Positions 8,878 to 35,313 of a stretch of 64,000 nt of DNA are shown piece by piece (positions within the stretch are counted from its first letter, which is position 1; each line of letters opens with the position of its first letter). The translations under genes and the position numbers were made by a program. The notes under the pieces were generated by a model that was not told where the DNA came from, ran no database searches, and saw only the letters and a list, made by a program, of their open reading frames with translations. Source of the DNA: a virus. The DNA lies in IMG/VR virus record IMGVR_UViG_3300045988_109366, positions 64,001 to 128,000 of that record; one strand, 5' to 3'.

Positions 8878-9069
8878 ATATGCAATTTTTATGTGTCTAC
8901 AAAAGTAGACATTTTGTTTTTGAATTAAATTAAATAAACATTATTAATAGTTAATACCATCCTTTCTTCTATCATTCATATTTATTCTTTTAAGTAATTA
9001 TATACAACCTTACACTACAAACATACTGAATTATTTTTATATATAAATAATAATCCATATATTCGTGCC

Positions 9070-10293
9070 ATGAGGCTAGTTGAACAACATATAATCAAGC
9101 AAAGCTCAATATATTACAATGAGATTCAAGATCTGTTGCATAAGTGCAAAAACTTATACAACAAAGGATTGTATGTTGTTAGACAACATTACTTTCAATA
9201 TAAGAATGATAATACCGTTAAGTATAAATACCTCAACTACTACCCTCTTGAAAAGAAGTTAAGAACAGAAGATGACGTTGACTATCGTGCTTTACCGTCA
9301 CCGGTAGCCCAACAGGTATTGATAATGGTCGACCAGAATTTCAAGTCCTTCTTCAATCTTCTTAATAAGAAAGGTAGAGGTGAATATTCTGAGAAAGTAA
9401 GAATACCTAAGTATCTTGATAAAGATGGGATGTTTATGGCTGTTTTCCCAACAACAGCCTTTTCTCAAAAATGGATAAAGCAAGGTATTATTAAGTTGCC
9501 AAAGCAATTCTCTTTCACCACGAGAACTAACAAGCAAAATATCCAACAACTCAGGTTCGTCCCTAAGAATGGATATATTATACTTGAAATCGTATATAAC
9601 AAGAAAGAGAAAGATCTTATATATGATAACGGTAATTACCTTGGTATTGATCTTGGACTTAACAATTTAGCATCTTGTGTATCAAATACCGGTTCCTGCT
9701 TTATCATCAACGGTAAGCCTCTAAAATCTATCAACCAGTATTATAATAAAAGATTAGCATATTTAAAATCTAAATTAAAAGACAATAAACAAGTCTCAAA
9801 GCAAATAAGGTCGTTAACCAACAAAAGGAATAACAAGATCAAGGATTATCTGCATAAAGCCAGTAGGGTATTGATTAATCATGTAGTCTCCAATGGCATT
9901 AATACGATCATAATCGGTCATAATAGATGTTGGAAACAAGAGATCAATATCGGAAAGCGGAATAATCAGAACTTTGTTTCTATTCCTTTTAATATGTTTA
10001 TCTCAATGATATCATATAAGGCTACACTTGAGGGAATCAATGTTAAGATCGTTGAGGAATCCTATACCTCAAAATGTAGTTTCTTGGATAACGAGCAGAT
10101 TCGTAAGCATGAGGAATATGTCGGAAGACGTATCAAACGAGGATTATTCAAGACATCTTCCGGCAATATTATTAACGCCGATATCAACGCTGCATTTAAC
10201 ATCATTAGAAAATCGGCAAAAGAAGCCTTCGATGTAAGTATCTTGCCAGAAGGTAGAGGGTTTTGGTGGAACCCGATACGGATTTCCGTATAG
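9070..10293 (+). CDS. tnpB: TnpB (IS200/IS605-family OrfB, RNA-guided nuclease family)
   Basis: 407 aa; RuvC-I GIDLGLNNLA; IIGHNRCWKQEINIG (RuvC-II region); EESYTSKCS ... NADINAAFNIIRK (RuvC-III). Confidence 0.85.
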   Translation: MRLVEQHIIKQSSIYYNEIQDLLHKCKNLYNKGLYVVRQHYFQYKNDNTVKYKYLNYYPLEKKLRTEDDVDYRALPSPVAQQVLIMVDQNFKSFFNLLNKKGRGEYSEKVRIPKYLDKDGMFMAVFPTTAFSQKWIKQGIIKLPKQFSFTTRTNKQNIQQLRFVPKNGYIILEIVYNKKEKDLIYDNGNYLGIDLGLNNLASCVSNTGSCFIINGKPLKSINQYYNKRLAYLKSKLKDNKQVSKQIRSLTNKRNNKIKDYLHKASRVLINHVVSNGINTIIIGHNRCWKQEINIGKRNNQNFVSIPFNMFISMISYKATLEGINVKIVEESYTSKCSFLDNEQIRKHEEYVGRRIKRGLFKTSSGNIINADINAAFNIIRKSAKEAFDVSILPEGRGFWWNPIRISV

Positions 10294-10338
10294 ATATATA
10301 TCATTTTACGATTTTAGTGTAAAATGGTATATAATCAC
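10150..10338 (+). ncRNA. putative omega (right-end) RNA scaffold of the tnpB element
   Basis: It overlaps the tnpB 3' end and right end, as in characterised TnpB systems. Hairpins GGGTT..AACCC (10258-10274) and TACGG..CCGTA (10277-10290) are conserved in the tnpB-less copy, with one compensatory pair change. Confidence 0.4.
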
Positions 10339-10753
10339 CTACCCCAACATCTGCTCCATCTTCTTTAATCCAATTATCCGTATCGCAATGCCAACAATAT
10401 CCTGTTTTGGAATCCTCTTTATGAGAATGAGACCCACAAGTAGCGCACCAATAATTATCATCCGTATCGTATGCGTAGCTTTTATCCTCATGCATCTTAG
10501 CTACTCTGACCATTCTATCTTCTAGCAGTTCTTTTAGATAAGGGCATTCATAAGGTCTATCCTCCTCCCGTAATATCCAAAGCTCGATATCCGTCATCTC
10601 CCCCATCCTGTCCGTGCACATCCGCTCGGCGGCATGACGTACGCTATCTTCCGGCATCCCCGGGACTATCTCCCGGATCACTGCCTCCATCCTCTCTTGG
10701 TATTCGGTGTCTACCTTAGCCACCAAGCCTTCTAATTTATCTATTAAGCTCAT
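10301..10753 (-). CDS. hypothetical zinc-ribbon protein; last 13 codons lie inside the IS right end
   Basis: CATCGSHSH..CWHCD motif. The C-terminal GDYIPFYTKIVK is encoded by 10301-10339, within the element terminus. Confidence 0.55.
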   Translation of the reverse strand: MSLIDKLEGLVAKVDTEYQERMEAVIREIVPGMPEDSVRHAAERMCTDRMGEMTDIELWILREEDRPYECPYLKELLEDRMVRVAKMHEDKSYAYDTDDNYWCATCGSHSHKEDSKTGYCWHCDTDNWIKEDGADVGVGDYIPFYTKIVK

Positions 10754-10774
10754 AATTTTTATTGTATATAATTA

Positions 10775-13473: not shown

Positions 13474-13702
13474 TTAATCATTATACTTGTGGAAAATAAA
13501 ATCCGCACATTCTCCGGGGAGTGTTCCTGCGTCATTACAACGGTAGAATCCTTGTGTTTCCAAATCTACATCTACCGGATAACCTTCTGCTGCTTCCAAG
13601 AAGCGTTTGATTTCCTCACATTCTTCATCCGTTAATCCAGTGTAATCATCATTGATTAACGGGCAAGCCCAATAAATCGGGAGCCTGTATCTTATTATCT
13701 CT
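13474..13702 (-). pseudogene. small gene separated from its start codon by the 13703-14037 insertion
   Basis: Open frame ...IIRYRLPIYWACPLINDDYTGLTDEECEEIKRFLEAAEGYPVDVDLETQGFYRCNDAGTLPGECADFIFHKYND* contains no Met. The matching ATG (14053..14051) lies on the other side of the element. Confidence 0.65.
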
Positions 13703-14037
13703 GGCGATTATATACTATTTTACACCAGATATGTTATAAAACATACAGATGTTATTTAATTTCATATTCTTCTTTTCTAACTTTGTTTCACCCAATCGAA
13801 TCACATAGTCCCTTGTTTCGGACAAGACGATTGGGTAAAAGAGGTCTTTGATATAAGGTTTTACCCTAAAAAAATATTCGTTGGGTAAGTAAAATCAAAA
13901 ACGTTTTGTTTAGTAAAAGAATCCGGCGATCTCACTTTTGAGCAACCGGTAGAGGGTATTGGTGATACCCAGTACGGATTTTCGTACAAATGCATATCAT
14001 TTCTCATTTTTTTGGTGTAAAATGGTATATAATCACC
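13703..14037 (+). mobile_element. non-autonomous (tnpB-less) derivative of the 8993-10338 element, with TIRs and an 8-bp target duplication
   Basis: 25-bp TIRs at 13703-13727 and 14013-14037 (2 mismatches); flanking direct repeat TTATCTCT at 13695-13702 and 14038-14045; right ~130 nt homologous to 10190-10338. Confidence 0.75.
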
Positions 14038-14049
14038 TTATCTCTATAT

Positions 14050-14445
14050 TCATAACTTCATCAATTTACAATATGAATCTTCAAATATAGGGATCAAACC
14101 TTGTTCCCTAAAATACGCTGTTGCAACTTTAAAAGCGTACAAAGGGTTCACTTCTTGTATCTTATTCTTTTTTACTCCCTGGGTAATAATTGGATTACAA
14201 CAATAGAATTTTTCATTACCTAAACTTCCAAATACGCTATCTACATTATACTCATAGCAATTAGTACCTCCCAATATCAGCAAATCACATCCAGTCTCTC
14301 TGGTTCCAAGGATAAACGATTTATTCTTATTTGCTGGAAGCATGAATATTTCCTTATCCATATTAAACCAATCATTCTGATTATATTTTACATCCCGGAG
14401 AACGATCTCATCAATCTCATGGGCATATTCTTCTTGTGTTTTCAT
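14050..14445 (-). CDS. hypothetical protein
   Basis: ORF track. Confidence 0.55.
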   Translation of the reverse strand: MKTQEEYAHEIDEIVLRDVKYNQNDWFNMDKEIFMLPANKNKSFILGTRETGCDLLILGGTNCYEYNVDSVFGSLGNEKFYCCNPIITQGVKKNKIQEVNPLYAFKVATAYFREQGLIPIFEDSYCKLMKL

Positions 14446-21604: not shown

Positions 21605-21629
21605 ACTATTAGTATTTTATATTACCACT

Positions 21630-33196: not shown

Positions 33197-34297
33197 TTAA
33201 ACAATAATTGATGATGATAAGAAATACTCGTTCTTATTATCCTCCCCATAAATCTTGTTGAAATGAGATTTATGGTCATGCTCGATAACGATCCTATTCC
33301 ATGGTATGCTTTTAACTATACCAAGATACCTACCACATAGCACATCGCATATAATATCATTACCGTTATGCGATAAAGCCGTAAGCCTTTCCTTACAAGA
33401 TCTTCCAGACATAGGGTTCTCTGACATAATACCGCATCCTTTTTCAGTGAATATCAACTTACAATGATCAAACTCATTTACCTTAATATTATTTTGGAGG
33501 GCCTGGACGAGTAGATCCTTATCAAAGACATAGGTACTTGTTTTGACAAAATGCTCGTCCACGAACCTCCAATTTGGATAATTACCCTCAAAATGGGTCT
33601 CATACATATCCATATCAGGCGTAGAGAAATAAGTCTTAGTATCATCCACTTTTATAGACAACATATCCGATGACTTATTGATATGCTTATCAAGCAATAT
33701 CGCGGATTCGTTCGATACCGGGATAAACATCTTCTCTACCTTATCCTGATTAGGGACAAAATACCTGTAAATAGTATTTCTATCCGTACTTACTATATTA
33801 ATATTAATATCATCAATATCAATAACCACATTCTCGATGCATGGATAAAAGTCATCTACCTCCGTATAATCGCTGGCTTTGTTAAGAACCGAAACATAAT
33901 CGCTCATCTTAACCTTAATTCCTCCATCAAGTATCTTATGTACCTGCGGGAATGTATTGATATCAAAAGCCGGACAACTATACTCACCAGAAGCGTAGTG
34001 GATCGTGATCTGATCTTTTCTATCCGAAAGCAGTATCGTAATCTCACAATTCTTCTGTTTTTTCATGAACTTAATAAAAGAGCTTGCCTCTACCAAGAAA
34101 GAGAAGTTAGAGTCAGCCTCGACCTCCAATCGCTCTATAACACATACCTTGGCATTTACGGAAGTGATATAAGCCAGATTATTGACAACATCTATCTTAA
34201 GATCCTTATAAAGGGAGTTGGAACCGGCGTTCTTAACCACCGTCTCCAGTTTACCCAACTTCTCATTTAATGACTTCGACAAGCACTTCAATACCAT
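33197..34297 (-). CDS. DNA polymerase sliding clamp (beta-clamp-like)
   Basis: 366 aa. The N-terminal pattern (L..L..V..V......LY..L.I.V..N.L.ITS.N...... F.V.A..F..F.K ... FD...FPQ) parallels DnaN. Confidence 0.55.
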   Translation of the reverse strand: MVLKCLSKSLNEKLGKLETVVKNAGSNSLYKDLKIDVVNNLAYITSVNAKVCVIERLEVEADSNFSFLVEASSFIKFMKKQKNCEITILLSDRKDQITIHYASGEYSCPAFDINTFPQVHKILDGGIKVKMSDYVSVLNKASDYTEVDDFYPCIENVVIDIDDININIVSTDRNTIYRYFVPNQDKVEKMFIPVSNESAILLDKHINKSSDMLSIKVDDTKTYFSTPDMDMYETHFEGNYPNWRFVDEHFVKTSTYVFDKDLLVQALQNNIKVNEFDHCKLIFTEKGCGIMSENPMSGRSCKERLTALSHNGNDIICDVLCGRYLGIVKSIPWNRIVIEHDHKSHFNKIYGEDNKNEYFLSSSIIV

Positions 34298-34386: not shown

Positions 34387-34677
34387 AATCCCGATTATGG
34401 GATAAATCAGGATAAAAATCCTGTTAGTACCCATCGCCAATGTTACCAAAGGTTTCATACAAGCAGCACTGTTTTGCCGAATACGCTACTCCTGTTTAAC
34501 CACTTGCCTTAGAGCCTTGGGCTTGGATAAACACCCTAGGGTAACTATACATTCTAAGGTAACGTAGTGCTCTAAGCACTTAGGCTAATAACCTGACCGT
34601 TTCCGGTATATGTAAAATATTTTTCAACATCTTACATATTATCCGAGGTTATAATAAACAACTTTTACATGACATTG

Positions 34678-34728: not shown

Positions 34729-35313
34729 TTAAAATAATTTAAACTTACGTCTAATATACTCGGCTATAAGCGTAGCGTCACACATTCCGTCTTGTATCTT
34801 AGTAGGTTGTATTCCTTTTCCTGACCATGGTTTCACGAAAGAGACCAAAGGGAAAAGGCGTATGGCGCATCGGATGGAGGTAGCTTTCGTATCTAACTTC
34901 GCCGCCGTATACACCCGATCGGCTGTCGTATGAAGCTCCTTCTGCCAGGTCTTTGGCTGTACCTCCTCGAACATGAACCTAACATCCGGGTGAGATCCGT
35001 ATCGCTCCATCATCTCCACCATCATAGCGAATAGGGCGTTCGGTTCCCGGCGTCTCCCGCCAAAGGTGAAGTTGCTGGCGGCCGAGCTGTTGTGGATGCT
35101 GTGGACGTCCTCGACGGCGATCGCCAGCGTCCCGCCTCCCTCTTCTTGGATCTTGTCAGCGGCATCTAGGAGGAAGCTTGATATAGCCCTAAGGTCTATA
35201 TCCCCCTTAGCCGATATCCTTGGAGTCATAATTACCTTAATATCCCCGTTCTCCGGGATCATGGACAATCCTCCGGTGTCTATACCCGGATCTATGCCTA
35301 TTGATATATTCAT
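34729..35313 (-). CDS. RuvC-like Holliday junction resolvase
   Basis: ISIGIDPGIDTGGLS (first catalytic Asp) and LAIAVEDVHS (Glu) in RuvC order; 194 aa. Confidence 0.6.
   Translation of the reverse strand: MNISIGIDPGIDTGGLSMIPENGDIKVIMTPRISAKGDIDLRAISSFLLDAADKIQEEGGGTLAIAVEDVHSIHNSSAASNFTFGGRRREPNALFAMMVEMMERYGSHPDVRFMFEEVQPKTWQKELHTTADRVYTAAKLDTKATSIRCAIRLFPLVSFVKPWSGKGIQPTKIQDGMCDATLIAEYIRRKFKLF

What the first reader, a model, noticed from the sequence alone, without database searches (positions are those of the whole stretch)
13695..14045. 335-bp tnpB-less element with 25-bp terminal inverted repeats and an 8-bp target duplication that splits a small gene
13703-13727 (GGCGATTATATACTATTTTACACCA) is the inverted complement of 14013-14037 (TGGTGTAAAATGGTATATAATCACC), with 2 mismatches in 25. 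The 8-mer TTATCTCT directly flanks both ends (13695-13702 and 14038-14045). The right ~130 nt is homologous to the tnpB 3' end and right end of the element at 8993-10338: the 24-nt terminus GTGTAAAATGGTATATAATCACCT is identical, and the blocks GTAGAGGGT and TACGGATTT are shared. The left ~45 nt resembles that element's left end, but tnpB itself is absent. Deleting the element plus one TTATCTCT copy joins an ATG at 14053..14051 (ATGA overlap with the stop of ORF 14050..14445) in frame to the start-less ORF 13474..13702. The result is a 78-aa protein, MNIEIIRYRLPIYWACPLINDDYTGL.... This indicates a recent insertion that disrupted a gene. Canonical IS200/IS605 and IS607 tnpB elements have no TIRs and make no target duplication. 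A TIR+TSD tnpB lineage therefore implies either mobilisation in trans by a DDE-type transposase (none is in this window) or an undescribed transposition mode.
Basis: partly seen in the sequence, partly recalled or inferred. Interest (0 to 1): 0.8.

Follow-up and report, generated by a model that had tools for sequence, protein, structure and literature searches.

The report
Guide-RNA-carrying miniature transposon in crAss-like phage
The 335-bp insert is a real miniature transposon whose inverted ends and 8-bp duplication match an IS1595-family transposase found in sister phages and gut Bacteroidales, and it keeps the guide-RNA part of a TnpB nuclease gene, so it may also spread by RNA-guided homing.

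Summary
The inverted ends, the 8-bp duplication TTATCTCT and the split 78-aa gene are all present. About 30 related phage loci carry the predicted empty site.

The window comes from an epsilon crAss-like phage (78-85% identical to csAssE-Sib).

A 309-aa IS1595-family transposase (Pfam E=2e-45, NCBIfam 204 bits) lies in 2.4-5.5 kb cargo transposons with the same ends (GGTAATTATATAC...) and 8-bp duplications. These transposons occur at many sites in sister phages and in Bacteroidales chromosomes. None is in this 64-kb window.

The neighbouring TnpB gene belongs to an IS607-type lineage and now sits as the only gene between such ends. The 335-bp element has lost tnpB. It keeps about 115-135 nt of the TnpB guide-RNA (omega RNA) scaffold, with stems preserved by compensatory changes.

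One result was not expected. The 25 independent insertion sites of guide-RNA-bearing elements have T[T/A]A just before the duplication and T as its first base in 20 of 25 cases. Transposase-bearing copies show this in 2 of 11. This fits selection for a TnpB target-adjacent motif, which would mean homing into empty alleles of co-infecting phages. That step is inferred, not shown.

Verdict: a known kind of element (a MITE of a DDE insertion sequence) in a new variant.

The parts
13692..13694 (+). TTA just 5' of the left copy of the duplication; candidate TnpB target-adjacent motif (TAM) of the empty allele
   Evidence: T[T/A]A followed by T is found at 20 of 25 independent sites of guide-RNA-bearing elements and at 2 of 11 sites of transposase-bearing copies. 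A role as TAM is inferred.
13695..13702 (.). left copy of the 8-bp target-site duplication TTATCTCT
   Evidence: Empty alleles carry a single copy.
13703..13727 (+). left terminal inverted repeat GGCGATTATATACTATTTTACACCA
   Evidence: It belongs to the same terminus family as the IS1595-type transposon ends, GGTAATTATATACCAGTTTACACC.
13728..13902 (+). conserved central region of unknown role, with a strong hairpin (CCCAATCG 13791-13798 pairs with CGATTGGG 13828-13835) and a TAACTTTG motif at 13778-13785
   Evidence: Highly conserved among 28 distinct mini sequences. No tnpB coding remnant. No Rfam match. Reading TAACTTTG as a Bacteroides-type -7 promoter box rests on my own knowledge and is untested.
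13903..14037 (+). omega-RNA-like scaffold: remnant of the tnpB 3' end plus the right end, with the coding frame lost
   Evidence: Five helices and 28 pairs; 96.8% of cells are paired against about 40% when partners are slid; compensatory changes separate mini from full elements. Only the last 13 codons of tnpB are recognisable.
14013..14037 (+). right terminal inverted repeat TGGTGTAAAATGGTATATAATCACC; its inner half forms the 3' arm of the last RNA stem
14038..14045 (.). right copy of the duplication TTATCTCT; together with about 8-12 nt beyond it, this is the position from which an omega-RNA guide would be taken
   Evidence: Empty alleles read CTTA-TTATCTCTATATTCATAAC. A role as guide is inferred by analogy with TnpB and Fanzor systems (PMC10711439).
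13474..13702 (-). 3' part (about 70 codons) of the split small gene
   Evidence: The intact homologue is CDS WOZ57388.1 of csAssE-Sib.
14038..14053 (-). 5' fragment of the split gene (ATG at 14053..14051)
8993..10339 (+). 1347-bp sister element with the same ends and tnpB as its only gene (9070-10293, 407 aa); no 8-bp duplication at this site (left flank ..TTCTTTTA, right flank TACCCCAA..)
   Evidence: Pfam OrfB_IS605 and Cas12f1-like_TNB. NCBIfam guided_TnpB. Inverted ends (I2). Same insertion at 99.85% identity in L044.

Best explanation
The 335-bp element is a non-autonomous miniature inverted-repeat element (MITE) of an IS1595-family DDE transposon that lives in epsilon crAss-like phages and their Bacteroidales hosts.

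A transposase supplied in trans, from a cargo-carrying master element in the same or a co-resident genome, binds the roughly 25-bp GG-initiated inverted ends. It inserts the element with the 8-bp staggered cut typical of this family. Here it landed in codon 6-8 of a small conserved phage gene.

The element descends from a version in which an IS607-lineage tnpB gene and its omega RNA sat between these ends. tnpB has been lost. The omega-RNA scaffold, whose 3' end is the right inverted repeat itself, has been kept.

Shown: the insertion and its empty site; many independent sites with 8-bp duplications; a transposase-bearing partner with the same ends; the conserved RNA fold.

Inferred: that this transposase is the one that moves it, and that the retained RNA is made and used by the TnpB of the neighbouring 1347-bp element.
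For: Ends, duplication and empty site.

Three size classes share the termini: about 1347 bp with tnpB, about 323-338 bp, and 51 bp.

25-26 independent sites have a perfect or near-perfect 8-bp duplication, many with matching empty alleles.

Deletion derivatives arise in place. L419 is an internally deleted copy of the full element at the same site as L347. L056 joins full-element positions 2-169 to 1248-1347.

The master element:
- L110 5161-6087 matches Pfam PF12762 at E=2.3e-45 and NCBIfam NF033547 at 204 bits against a cutoff of 75.
- 242 stretches of viral contigs encode relatives.
- Its ends are GGTAATTATATACCAGTTTACACC and GTGTAAAGTAGTATATAATTACC. Eight perfect 8-bp duplications were found at different phage sites.
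- A 71%-identical transposase, named by a source as from Parabacteroides faecis, has the same ends and 8-bp duplications in chromosomal contexts.

Co-occurrence: contig 084605 holds the transposase (L207), a mini (L070) and a full TnpB element (L374).

Family norm of 8-bp duplications: PMC8101967.

IS607 ancestry of the TnpB: a 55%-identical relative sits directly behind a 190-aa Resolvase-domain gene on seven contigs.

RNA fold.
Against: No transposase lies in the 64-kb window, and the rest of this phage genome was not available.

The transposase-bearing copies have GGTAATT or GGTGATT termini, whereas the mini has GGCGATT on the left. Cross-recognition is assumed, not shown.

Several full-length copies, including the window's own at 8993-10339, lack a duplication. 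Some of these are recombinants between copies. Others have small deletions next to the right end. Their origin is only partly explained.

Assignment to the ISNwi1 subgroup (ends ggnnatTAT) rests on my memory of ISfinder and could not be checked in the held literature.
Confidence: 0.85

Rival explanations
1. Two-layer mobility. The DDE transposase creates new insertions. The copies that persist and spread are those where a TnpB target-adjacent motif (T[T/A]A) happens to lie just 5' of the duplicated 8-mer. The element's own omega RNA takes its guide from the duplication plus the right flank. With TnpB, supplied in trans for the mini, it can then cut the empty allele in a co-infecting phage, and recombinational repair copies the element in. 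The mini would be an orphan guide-RNA gene that uses another element's nuclease. This extends the main explanation rather than competing with it.
For: Target motif: TWA|T occurs at 20/25 independent sites of guide-RNA-bearing elements and at 2/11 transposase-bearing copies (Fisher p=8e-4). The first base of the duplication is T in 25/25 against 5/11 (p=2e-4). The background frequency of TWAT in the window is 1.9%.

The motif is one-sided relative to the element's orientation. A symmetric DDE synaptic complex would not be expected to produce that.

In five of the seven copies without a duplication that I compared by eye (listing), the left flank ends in TTTA. The motif would again abut the guide match in the empty allele.

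The RNA fold is kept in minis although the coding frame is lost.

A TnpB element lies 3.4 kb from the mini in the window. Mini and full elements share at least 13 contigs in the truncated lists.

Empty alleles with TTA plus a 21-nt perfect match to the window's right flank exist in sister phages.

The concept of TnpB homing, and of reRNAs that run beyond the duplication in elements with inverted ends, is published (PMC13565253; PMC10711439).
Against: No expression, processing or cleavage data exist.

The TAM of this TnpB is unknown. The control group is small (11 sites) and may be moved by a transposase variant with a different target preference.

Most compensatory changes trace to a single split between the full and mini lineages. 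The fold could therefore be inherited rather than currently selected. Some mini variants break single pairs.

Phage genomes tolerate insertions at few places, which may bias sequence context.
Confidence: 0.45
2. The element is an IS200/IS605- or IS607-type non-autonomous element (a PATE-like element). A Y1 or serine TnpA would move it through single-strand hairpins or a 2-bp crossover, and the inverted ends would be a by-product of similar end hairpins.
For: The TnpB is of IS607 lineage. The right end of the full element has a subterminal hairpin (CATTTTAC-N9-GTAAAATG). Some full copies have no duplication and sit directly 3' of TTTA, as IS605-type elements do.
Against: Empty alleles at many sites prove real 8-bp duplications. 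Neither family makes these (PMC13565253; PMC6188088 abstract).

The IS607-type relatives have entirely different ends (ATGGCATC... and ...AAGTAACTAT) with no inverted repeat.

No Y1 or serine recombinase gene was seen next to any of the copies examined here. None is annotated in the 151-kb csAssE-Sib genome.

Several copies without a duplication are explained as recombinants, or as the same site with a deletion next to the right end.
Confidence: 0.05
3. TnpB itself, or an unknown phage function, carries out a new kind of transposition that yields inverted ends and 8-bp duplications.
For: No transposase is present in the window.
Against: A conventional partner transposase with the same ends and the same duplication length exists in the same phage lineage and in host genomes. 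MITE-like pairs with these ends and 8-bp duplications also occur in Rikenellaceae and other Bacteroidota loci where tblastn found no homologue of this TnpB.
Confidence: 0.03

Closest known systems
IS1595-family insertion sequences and their cargo-carrying forms, with derived MITEs (related to eukaryotic Merlin)
   Same: A DDE_Tnp_IS1595 transposase is the partner. The inverted ends start with GG. Duplications are 8 bp. Transposase-bearing forms carry variable passenger genes. The mini has no transposase.
   Different: The elements reside in and move among lytic-type crAss-like phage genomes. One non-autonomous lineage carries a TnpB nuclease gene as its only gene. The miniature form keeps a structured guide-RNA scaffold whose 3' end is the inverted repeat itself. 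Subgroup assignment (ISNwi1-like, from memory) is untested.
TnpB genes associated with DDE transposons in prokaryotes (six 'DDE' branches in Altae-Tran et al. 2023, PMC10691335; summarised as ISL2, IS630 and IS1031 in PMC13565253)
   Same: TnpB lies between symmetric inverted ends. Its 3' end is within 250 bp of the transposon end. Solo TnpBs are flanked by the same ends as transposase-bearing elements.
   Different: The main text of PMC10691335 contains no mention of IS1595. A full-text search of the held library for papers naming both IS1595 and TnpB returned nine papers; judged from their titles and abstracts, none is about such an association. Here transposase and tnpB were never seen in the same element. 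The TnpB clade is of IS607 type.
Fanzor1 and Fanzor2* elements of eukaryotes and their large viruses (PMC10711439)
   Same: A TnpB-family nuclease sits in a non-autonomous element with inverted ends and duplications inside a viral genome. [quoted passage not shown] The guide would be taken from beyond the end.
   Different: This is a prokaryotic virus with a bona fide TnpB (407 aa, IS607-type relatives). Whether the 8-bp duplication is part of the guide or of the scaffold is unknown.
IS200/IS605 PATEs and IS607 elements
   Same: Ancestry of the nuclease and of the omega-RNA arrangement (RNA overlapping the tnpB 3' end and running to the right end). Non-autonomous derivatives are common.
   Different: Those families have no inverted terminal repeats, make no duplications, and are moved by Y1 or serine recombinases. 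All three points fail here.

Membership tests
IS1595-family non-autonomous element (MITE) | Terminal inverted repeats beginning with GG | tested here: met
   GGCGATTATATAC... and ...GTATATAATCACC match at 23/25. The same terminus family bounds the transposase-bearing elements. The GG terminus is stated for the related Merlin elements in PMC8101967.
IS1595-family non-autonomous element (MITE) | 8-bp target-site duplication | tested here: met
   TTATCTCT here, with single-copy empty alleles. 25-26 further independent sites. PMC8101967 states that members are usually flanked by 8-bp TSDs.
IS1595-family non-autonomous element (MITE) | An autonomous partner encoding a DDE_Tnp_IS1595 transposase between the same ends | tested here: met
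   L110 5161-6087 matches PF12762 at E=2.3e-45 and NF033547 at 204 bits. It is absent from the window.
IS1595-family non-autonomous element (MITE) | No transposase gene inside the element | tested here: met
   Only ORFs of 36-48 aa lie inside 13703-14037. There is no tblastn match to the transposase or to TnpB beyond its last 13 codons.
IS1595-family non-autonomous element (MITE) | Actual mobilisation by that transposase | not testable with these tools
   Needs a transposition or end-binding assay.
IS200/IS605 (PATE / IS1341-type) | No inverted terminal repeats, no duplication, Y1 TnpA partner | tested here: not met
   Inverted ends and 8-bp duplications are present. No Y1 gene was seen next to the copies examined, and none is annotated in csAssE-Sib. 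Family definition from PMC13565253.
IS607 | Serine-recombinase TnpA next to tnpB; asymmetric ends; no duplication | tested here: not met
   Relatives of the TnpB at 55% identity are of this type. Their ends are unrelated to those here. The present elements have no Resolvase-domain gene and do make duplications.
OMEGA (TnpB plus omega RNA) system | TnpB protein with RuvC-type and zinc-ribbon domains | tested here: met
   For the 1347-bp neighbour only: PF01385, PF07282 and NF040570. Catalytic residues were not checked. No match by sequence to solved structures. The 335-bp element has none.
OMEGA (TnpB plus omega RNA) system | Structured RNA overlapping the tnpB 3' end and running to the right end | tested here: met
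   Five helices, 96.8% of cells paired, compensatory and G-U changes on the tnpB sense strand, shared by full and mini elements. No Rfam family matches.
OMEGA (TnpB plus omega RNA) system | Target-adjacent motif next to the guide match in the empty allele | tested here: inconclusive
   TWA|T at 20/25 sites against 2/11 in transposase-bearing copies. The real TAM of this TnpB is unknown.
OMEGA (TnpB plus omega RNA) system | RNA expression and RNA-guided cleavage | not testable with these tools
   Needs small-RNA sequencing and a cleavage or TAM-depletion assay.

The most novel reading that the evidence does not exclude
In crAss-like phages, TnpB-less miniature transposons act as orphan guide-RNA genes. 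A DDE (IS1595-family) transposase scatters them. Each new copy then reads its guide from its own duplication and flank. It borrows TnpB from a sister element to cut the empty allele in co-infecting phages and is copied in by repair. Under this reading only insertions that land next to a T[T/A]A motif persist. The population of insertion sites would then carry the nuclease's TAM as a footprint.
Probability: 0.4. Interest if true: 0.75.

Novelty: new variant of a known kind. Interest (0 to 1): 0.55.

Why it matters
The finding explains an apparent paradox. A tnpB lineage with inverted ends and duplications needs no new chemistry, because an IS607-type TnpB with its guide RNA has moved into an IS1595-family DDE transposon.

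It also documents active transposon traffic between Bacteroidales chromosomes and some of the most abundant human-gut phages. That traffic includes gene disruption and recombination between copies.

If the target-motif footprint reflects TnpB homing, these phages offer a natural system in which transposition (the DDE enzyme) and RNA-guided drive (TnpB plus omega RNA, including nuclease-less guide-only elements) are carried by separate, countable elements. The proposed role of TnpB in transposon retention and spread would then be testable from population data. The system would also supply a compact TnpB and omega-RNA pair with a predicted short TAM.

Tried and rejected
1. IS200/IS605 or IS607 mechanism. 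I first read the copies without a duplication that sit 3' of TTTA (window 8993-10339 against L124, L005 against L099) as a second, duplication-free insertion mode. A larger sample showed that many are recombinants between copies (L344, L363, L391, L319). Others are the same site as a duplicated copy with a few bases missing next to the right end (L423, L335, L288, L068). I no longer see a need for a second mechanism, although the cause of these deletions is open.

2. Genome scan for the 20-nt terminus. It found MITE-like pairs in Rikenellaceae and other Bacteroidota, and one unrelated TnpB with the same right terminus (L162). No transposase lay within those 8-kb loci. The 22 hits in Bengtsoniella are a chance match inside an IS4-type transposase gene. 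A 2.5-kb pair in a Melainabacteria MAG encloses a DGR (bAvd plus reverse transcriptase) and is probably a chance pairing.

3. TnpB neighbours at 57-69% identity gave no transposase.

4. Literature. No held paper describes these elements. The csAssE-Sib paper only notes two 'transposases' of the TnpB family. I could not retrieve the ISfinder or Siguier papers to check the ISNwi1 end consensus.

5. Rfam on the element gave no match. A sigma-70 promoter scan gave nothing above shuffles. A sequence search of solved structures with the TnpB gave no hit.

6. Whether the window's own phage encodes the transposase could not be settled. The closest contig (088318) is not identical, because it has the empty site.

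Full report
**1.

Positions 13703-13727 and 14013-14037 are inverted complements with 2 mismatches in 25. At lower stringency the repeat extends to 43 nt at 77% (I1). TTATCTCT abuts both ends, at 13695-13702 and 14038-14045. The 23-nt terminus occurs three times in the window: both ends of this element and the right end of the tnpB element. None of 100 shuffles gave even one match.

The tnpB element at 8993-10339 shares the last 29 nt at 97% identity, a 64-nt block upstream at 78%, and the left 34 nt at 71%. It has inverted ends of its own (I2). Its ORF (9070-10293, 407 aa) matches OrfB_IS605, Cas12f1-like_TNB and NCBIfam guided_TnpB.

**2. Source of the window, and the empty site**

The region is 78-85% identical to phage csAssE-Sib (OR575929.1, 151 kb) and to human faecal phage contigs. 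csAssE-Sib is described as an epsilon crAss-like phage (PMC11054128).

Removing the element and one copy of the 8-mer restores a 78-aa ORF. This ORF aligns with the annotated 84-aa CDS of csAssE-Sib.

About 30 related loci carry the uninterrupted site, as TTATCTCT, TTACCTCT or TTATTTCT. One of them is L044, whose contig shares the window's tnpB insertion at 99.85% identity. Six loci are occupied.

The window's copy is a mosaic. Its last 60 nt or so before the right repeat come from another mini subfamily. The insertion is therefore real, polymorphic among close relatives, and shared by several genomes.

**3. A family of mobile elements**

The termini bound three size classes:
- about 1347 bp, with tnpB;
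- 323-338 bp, the class of the finding;
- a 51-bp perfect palindrome.

Across 276 loci I found 25-26 independent target sites with a perfect or near-perfect 8-bp duplication: 12 for full elements and 14 for minis. For many of these, other phages, and the window itself, carry the matching empty allele with one copy of the 8-mer.

Miniature forms arise by internal deletion. L419 is a deleted copy of the full element at the very site occupied by the full element in L347. L056 joins full-element positions 2-169 to 1248-1347.

The 51-bp palindrome is what a deletion between two near-identical direct repeats would leave. One repeat is the left inverted repeat. The other is the 5' arm of the right-end hairpin. 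This is an inference from the sequences.

**4. Who moves it**

csAssE-Sib has no annotated transposase other than two TnpBs. Relatives of the TnpB at 55% identity lie directly behind a 190-aa Resolvase-domain gene. They are IS607-type elements with unrelated, non-inverted ends. The nuclease is therefore of IS607 ancestry, but the ends are not.

The partner turned up in L110. A 309-aa ORF there matches PF12762 (DDE_Tnp_IS1595, E=2.3e-45) and NCBIfam NF033547 (204 bits against a cutoff of 75).

- 242 viral stretches encode relatives. These include 96-100% and 71% identity groups in contigs of about 150 kb.
- The gene lies in elements of 2.4-5.5 kb bounded by GGTAATTATATACCAGTTTACACC and GTGTAAAGTAGTATATAATTACC.
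- The right end is at a fixed distance after the gene. Variable passenger genes lie before it.
- The elements sit at many different phage sites, eight of them with perfect 8-bp duplications.
- A 71%-identical transposase, labelled by a source as IS1595 family from Parabacteroides faecis, sits in chromosomal contexts with the same ends and the duplications AAGCAAAT, ATTTCTTA and ATAATTTT.
- Short MITE-like pairs with these ends and 8-bp duplications also occur in Rikenella, Alistipes and Chryseobacterium.

IS1595-family members are 'usually flanked by 8-bp TSDs' (PMC8101967). tblastn finds no transposase in the window. One contig (084605) holds the transposase, a mini and a full TnpB element together, and several others hold two of the three.

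This is the standard evidence for a MITE and its autonomous partner. I put 0.85 on it.

**5. What the mini keeps**

Only the last 13 codons of tnpB are recognisable in the mini, and the reading frame is broken. Even so, the last 115 nt or so fold into the same five helices as the 3' end of the full element:
- 28 pairs, with 96.8% of cells paired against 33-45% when partners are slid;
- nine pairs with changes on both sides;
- many G-U pairs on the tnpB sense strand.

Most double changes separate the mini lineage from the full lineage. They therefore represent few events, and they show inheritance of a constrained RNA rather than proving present function.

The inner half of the right inverted repeat is the 3' arm of the last stem. 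The terminal 12 nt are unpaired and abut the flank, where a guide would begin.

The central 170 nt are conserved across 28 distinct minis and contain a strong hairpin. Their role is unknown, and Rfam has no match.

**6. An unexpected footprint**

I oriented the elements by the RNA. In guide-RNA-bearing elements, the base before the left copy of the duplication is A in 24/25 sites. The first duplicated base is T in 25/25. The motif T[T/A]A|T is present in 20/25. For transposase-bearing copies with clean duplications the figures are 8/11, 5/11 and 2/11 (Fisher p=0.076, 2e-4 and 8e-4). The background frequency of TWAT is 1.9%.

The bias is one-sided, which a symmetric DDE complex would not be expected to produce.

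In five of the seven copies without a duplication that I compared by eye (listing), the left flank ends in TTTA. The motif would again sit next to the guide match in the empty allele.

This is what one expects if TnpB with the element's own RNA must be able to cut the empty allele, read as TAM plus duplication plus right flank, for an insertion to spread among co-infecting phages. Non-restorative homing of this kind is discussed in PMC13565253. reRNAs that run beyond the duplication are reported for Fanzor elements with inverted ends (PMC10711439).

It remains an inference, which I rate at about 0.45. The control group is small, the TAM is unknown, and no expression data exist.

**7. Loose ends**

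Several copies lack a duplication. Some are recombinants between copies. For example, L344 joins the window-type left flank to the right flank of another mini site. Others are the same site as a duplicated copy with 2, 3, 8 or 11 nt missing immediately after the right end (L288, L335, L423, L068). The window's own tnpB element looks like this class. I have no explanation for deletions at that particular position.

**8. Comparison with what is known**

MITEs of DDE insertion sequences, IS1595-family elements with passenger genes, and TnpB genes inside DDE transposons with inverted ends are all described. For the last, PMC10691335 reports six DDE branches, all with inverted ends, and solo TnpBs with the same ends. 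The element is therefore a known kind.

Four things are not in the papers I could search:
- the pairing of TnpB with the IS1595 family;
- the residence and traffic of these elements in crAss-like phages;
- miniature forms that retain the guide-RNA scaffold;
- the TAM-like footprint.

**Verdict:** a new variant of a known kind, of moderate interest.

Noticed in passing
window 34423-34652 (-): A HEARO RNA (the IscB/IsrB-type omega RNA; Rfam RF02033, 94 bits against a gathering score of 83) lies in the 430-nt gap between a sliding-clamp-like gene (33197-34297) and a RuvC-like resolvase gene (34729-35313). No IscB- or IsrB-sized ORF is next to it. It may be a second orphan guide-RNA element in the same phage.
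   Followed up: partly
L006 1633-1683 and about 35 other viral loci (e.g. L110 6407-6457): A 51-bp perfect palindrome, GGTGATTATATACCATTTTAC-N9-GTAAAATGGTATATAATCACC, sits at one conserved phage site flanked by TAA on each side. It looks like the smallest deletion derivative: the left repeat fused to the right-end hairpin. It is not present in the window.
   Followed up: partly
L423, L335, L288, L068 (right flanks); window 10340: Small deletions of 2, 3, 8 and 11 nt recur immediately after the right end, which is the predicted guide position. They occur at sites that carry a full 8-bp duplication in other genomes. The window's tnpB element (left ..ATTTA TTCTTTTA, right TACCCCAA) looks like the 8-nt case. 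The cause is unknown.
   Followed up: partly
window 10301-10753 (-): This 150-aa ORF runs into the right end of the tnpB element, so its last 12 codons (GDYIPFYTKIVK) are encoded by the inverted repeat. In the relative L124 the gene ends ...DVGI followed by a stop. The insertion has therefore replaced the stop codon and extended the protein.
   Followed up: partly
window 10757-10764, about 21609-21616 and about 240-247: The window carries empty alleles of sites that hold minis in other phages: TTGTATAT (L298), TTAGTATT (L037) and TATACATA (L049/L046).
   Followed up: yes
L162 1520-2695 (-), Muribaculaceae MAG: A TnpB that tblastn with the window's TnpB did not detect, and that has an HTH_OrfB_IS605 N-terminus, ends in the same right terminus (GTGTAAAATTGTATATAATCACC). 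It has a degenerate inverted left end. This suggests that more than one TnpB lineage has been taken up by these ends.
   Followed up: no
P0039 (507 aa) and P0042: Close TnpB homologues (88-94% identity over part of their length) carry extra Pfam domains. P0039 has HNH, HNH_5 and RRXRR; P0042 has PF12810. The tnpB gene may itself have been invaded by a homing-endonuclease gene.
   Followed up: no
L216 3255-7930; L110 2883-4574: The transposase-bearing elements carry variable passenger genes. Judged by eye only, they include a GNAT-like 200-aa protein, several lipoprotein-like ORFs and a 335-aa P63C/antirepressor-like protein. These are cargo transposons moving accessory genes between Bacteroidales and phages.
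   Followed up: no
L204 (flanks of the transposase-bearing element): The left flank TATGATTA and the right flank TAATCATA are reverse complements. This is as expected after an inversion between two oppositely oriented copies, and is one of several signs of recombination between copies.
   Followed up: no
L003 about 2497-2828 (csAssE-Sib 135400-135733): The csAssE-Sib copy of the mini has a degenerate left end. The annotated start codon of the adjacent AAA ATPase gene, and a 73-aa 'hypothetical protein' CDS, lie inside the element.
   Followed up: no
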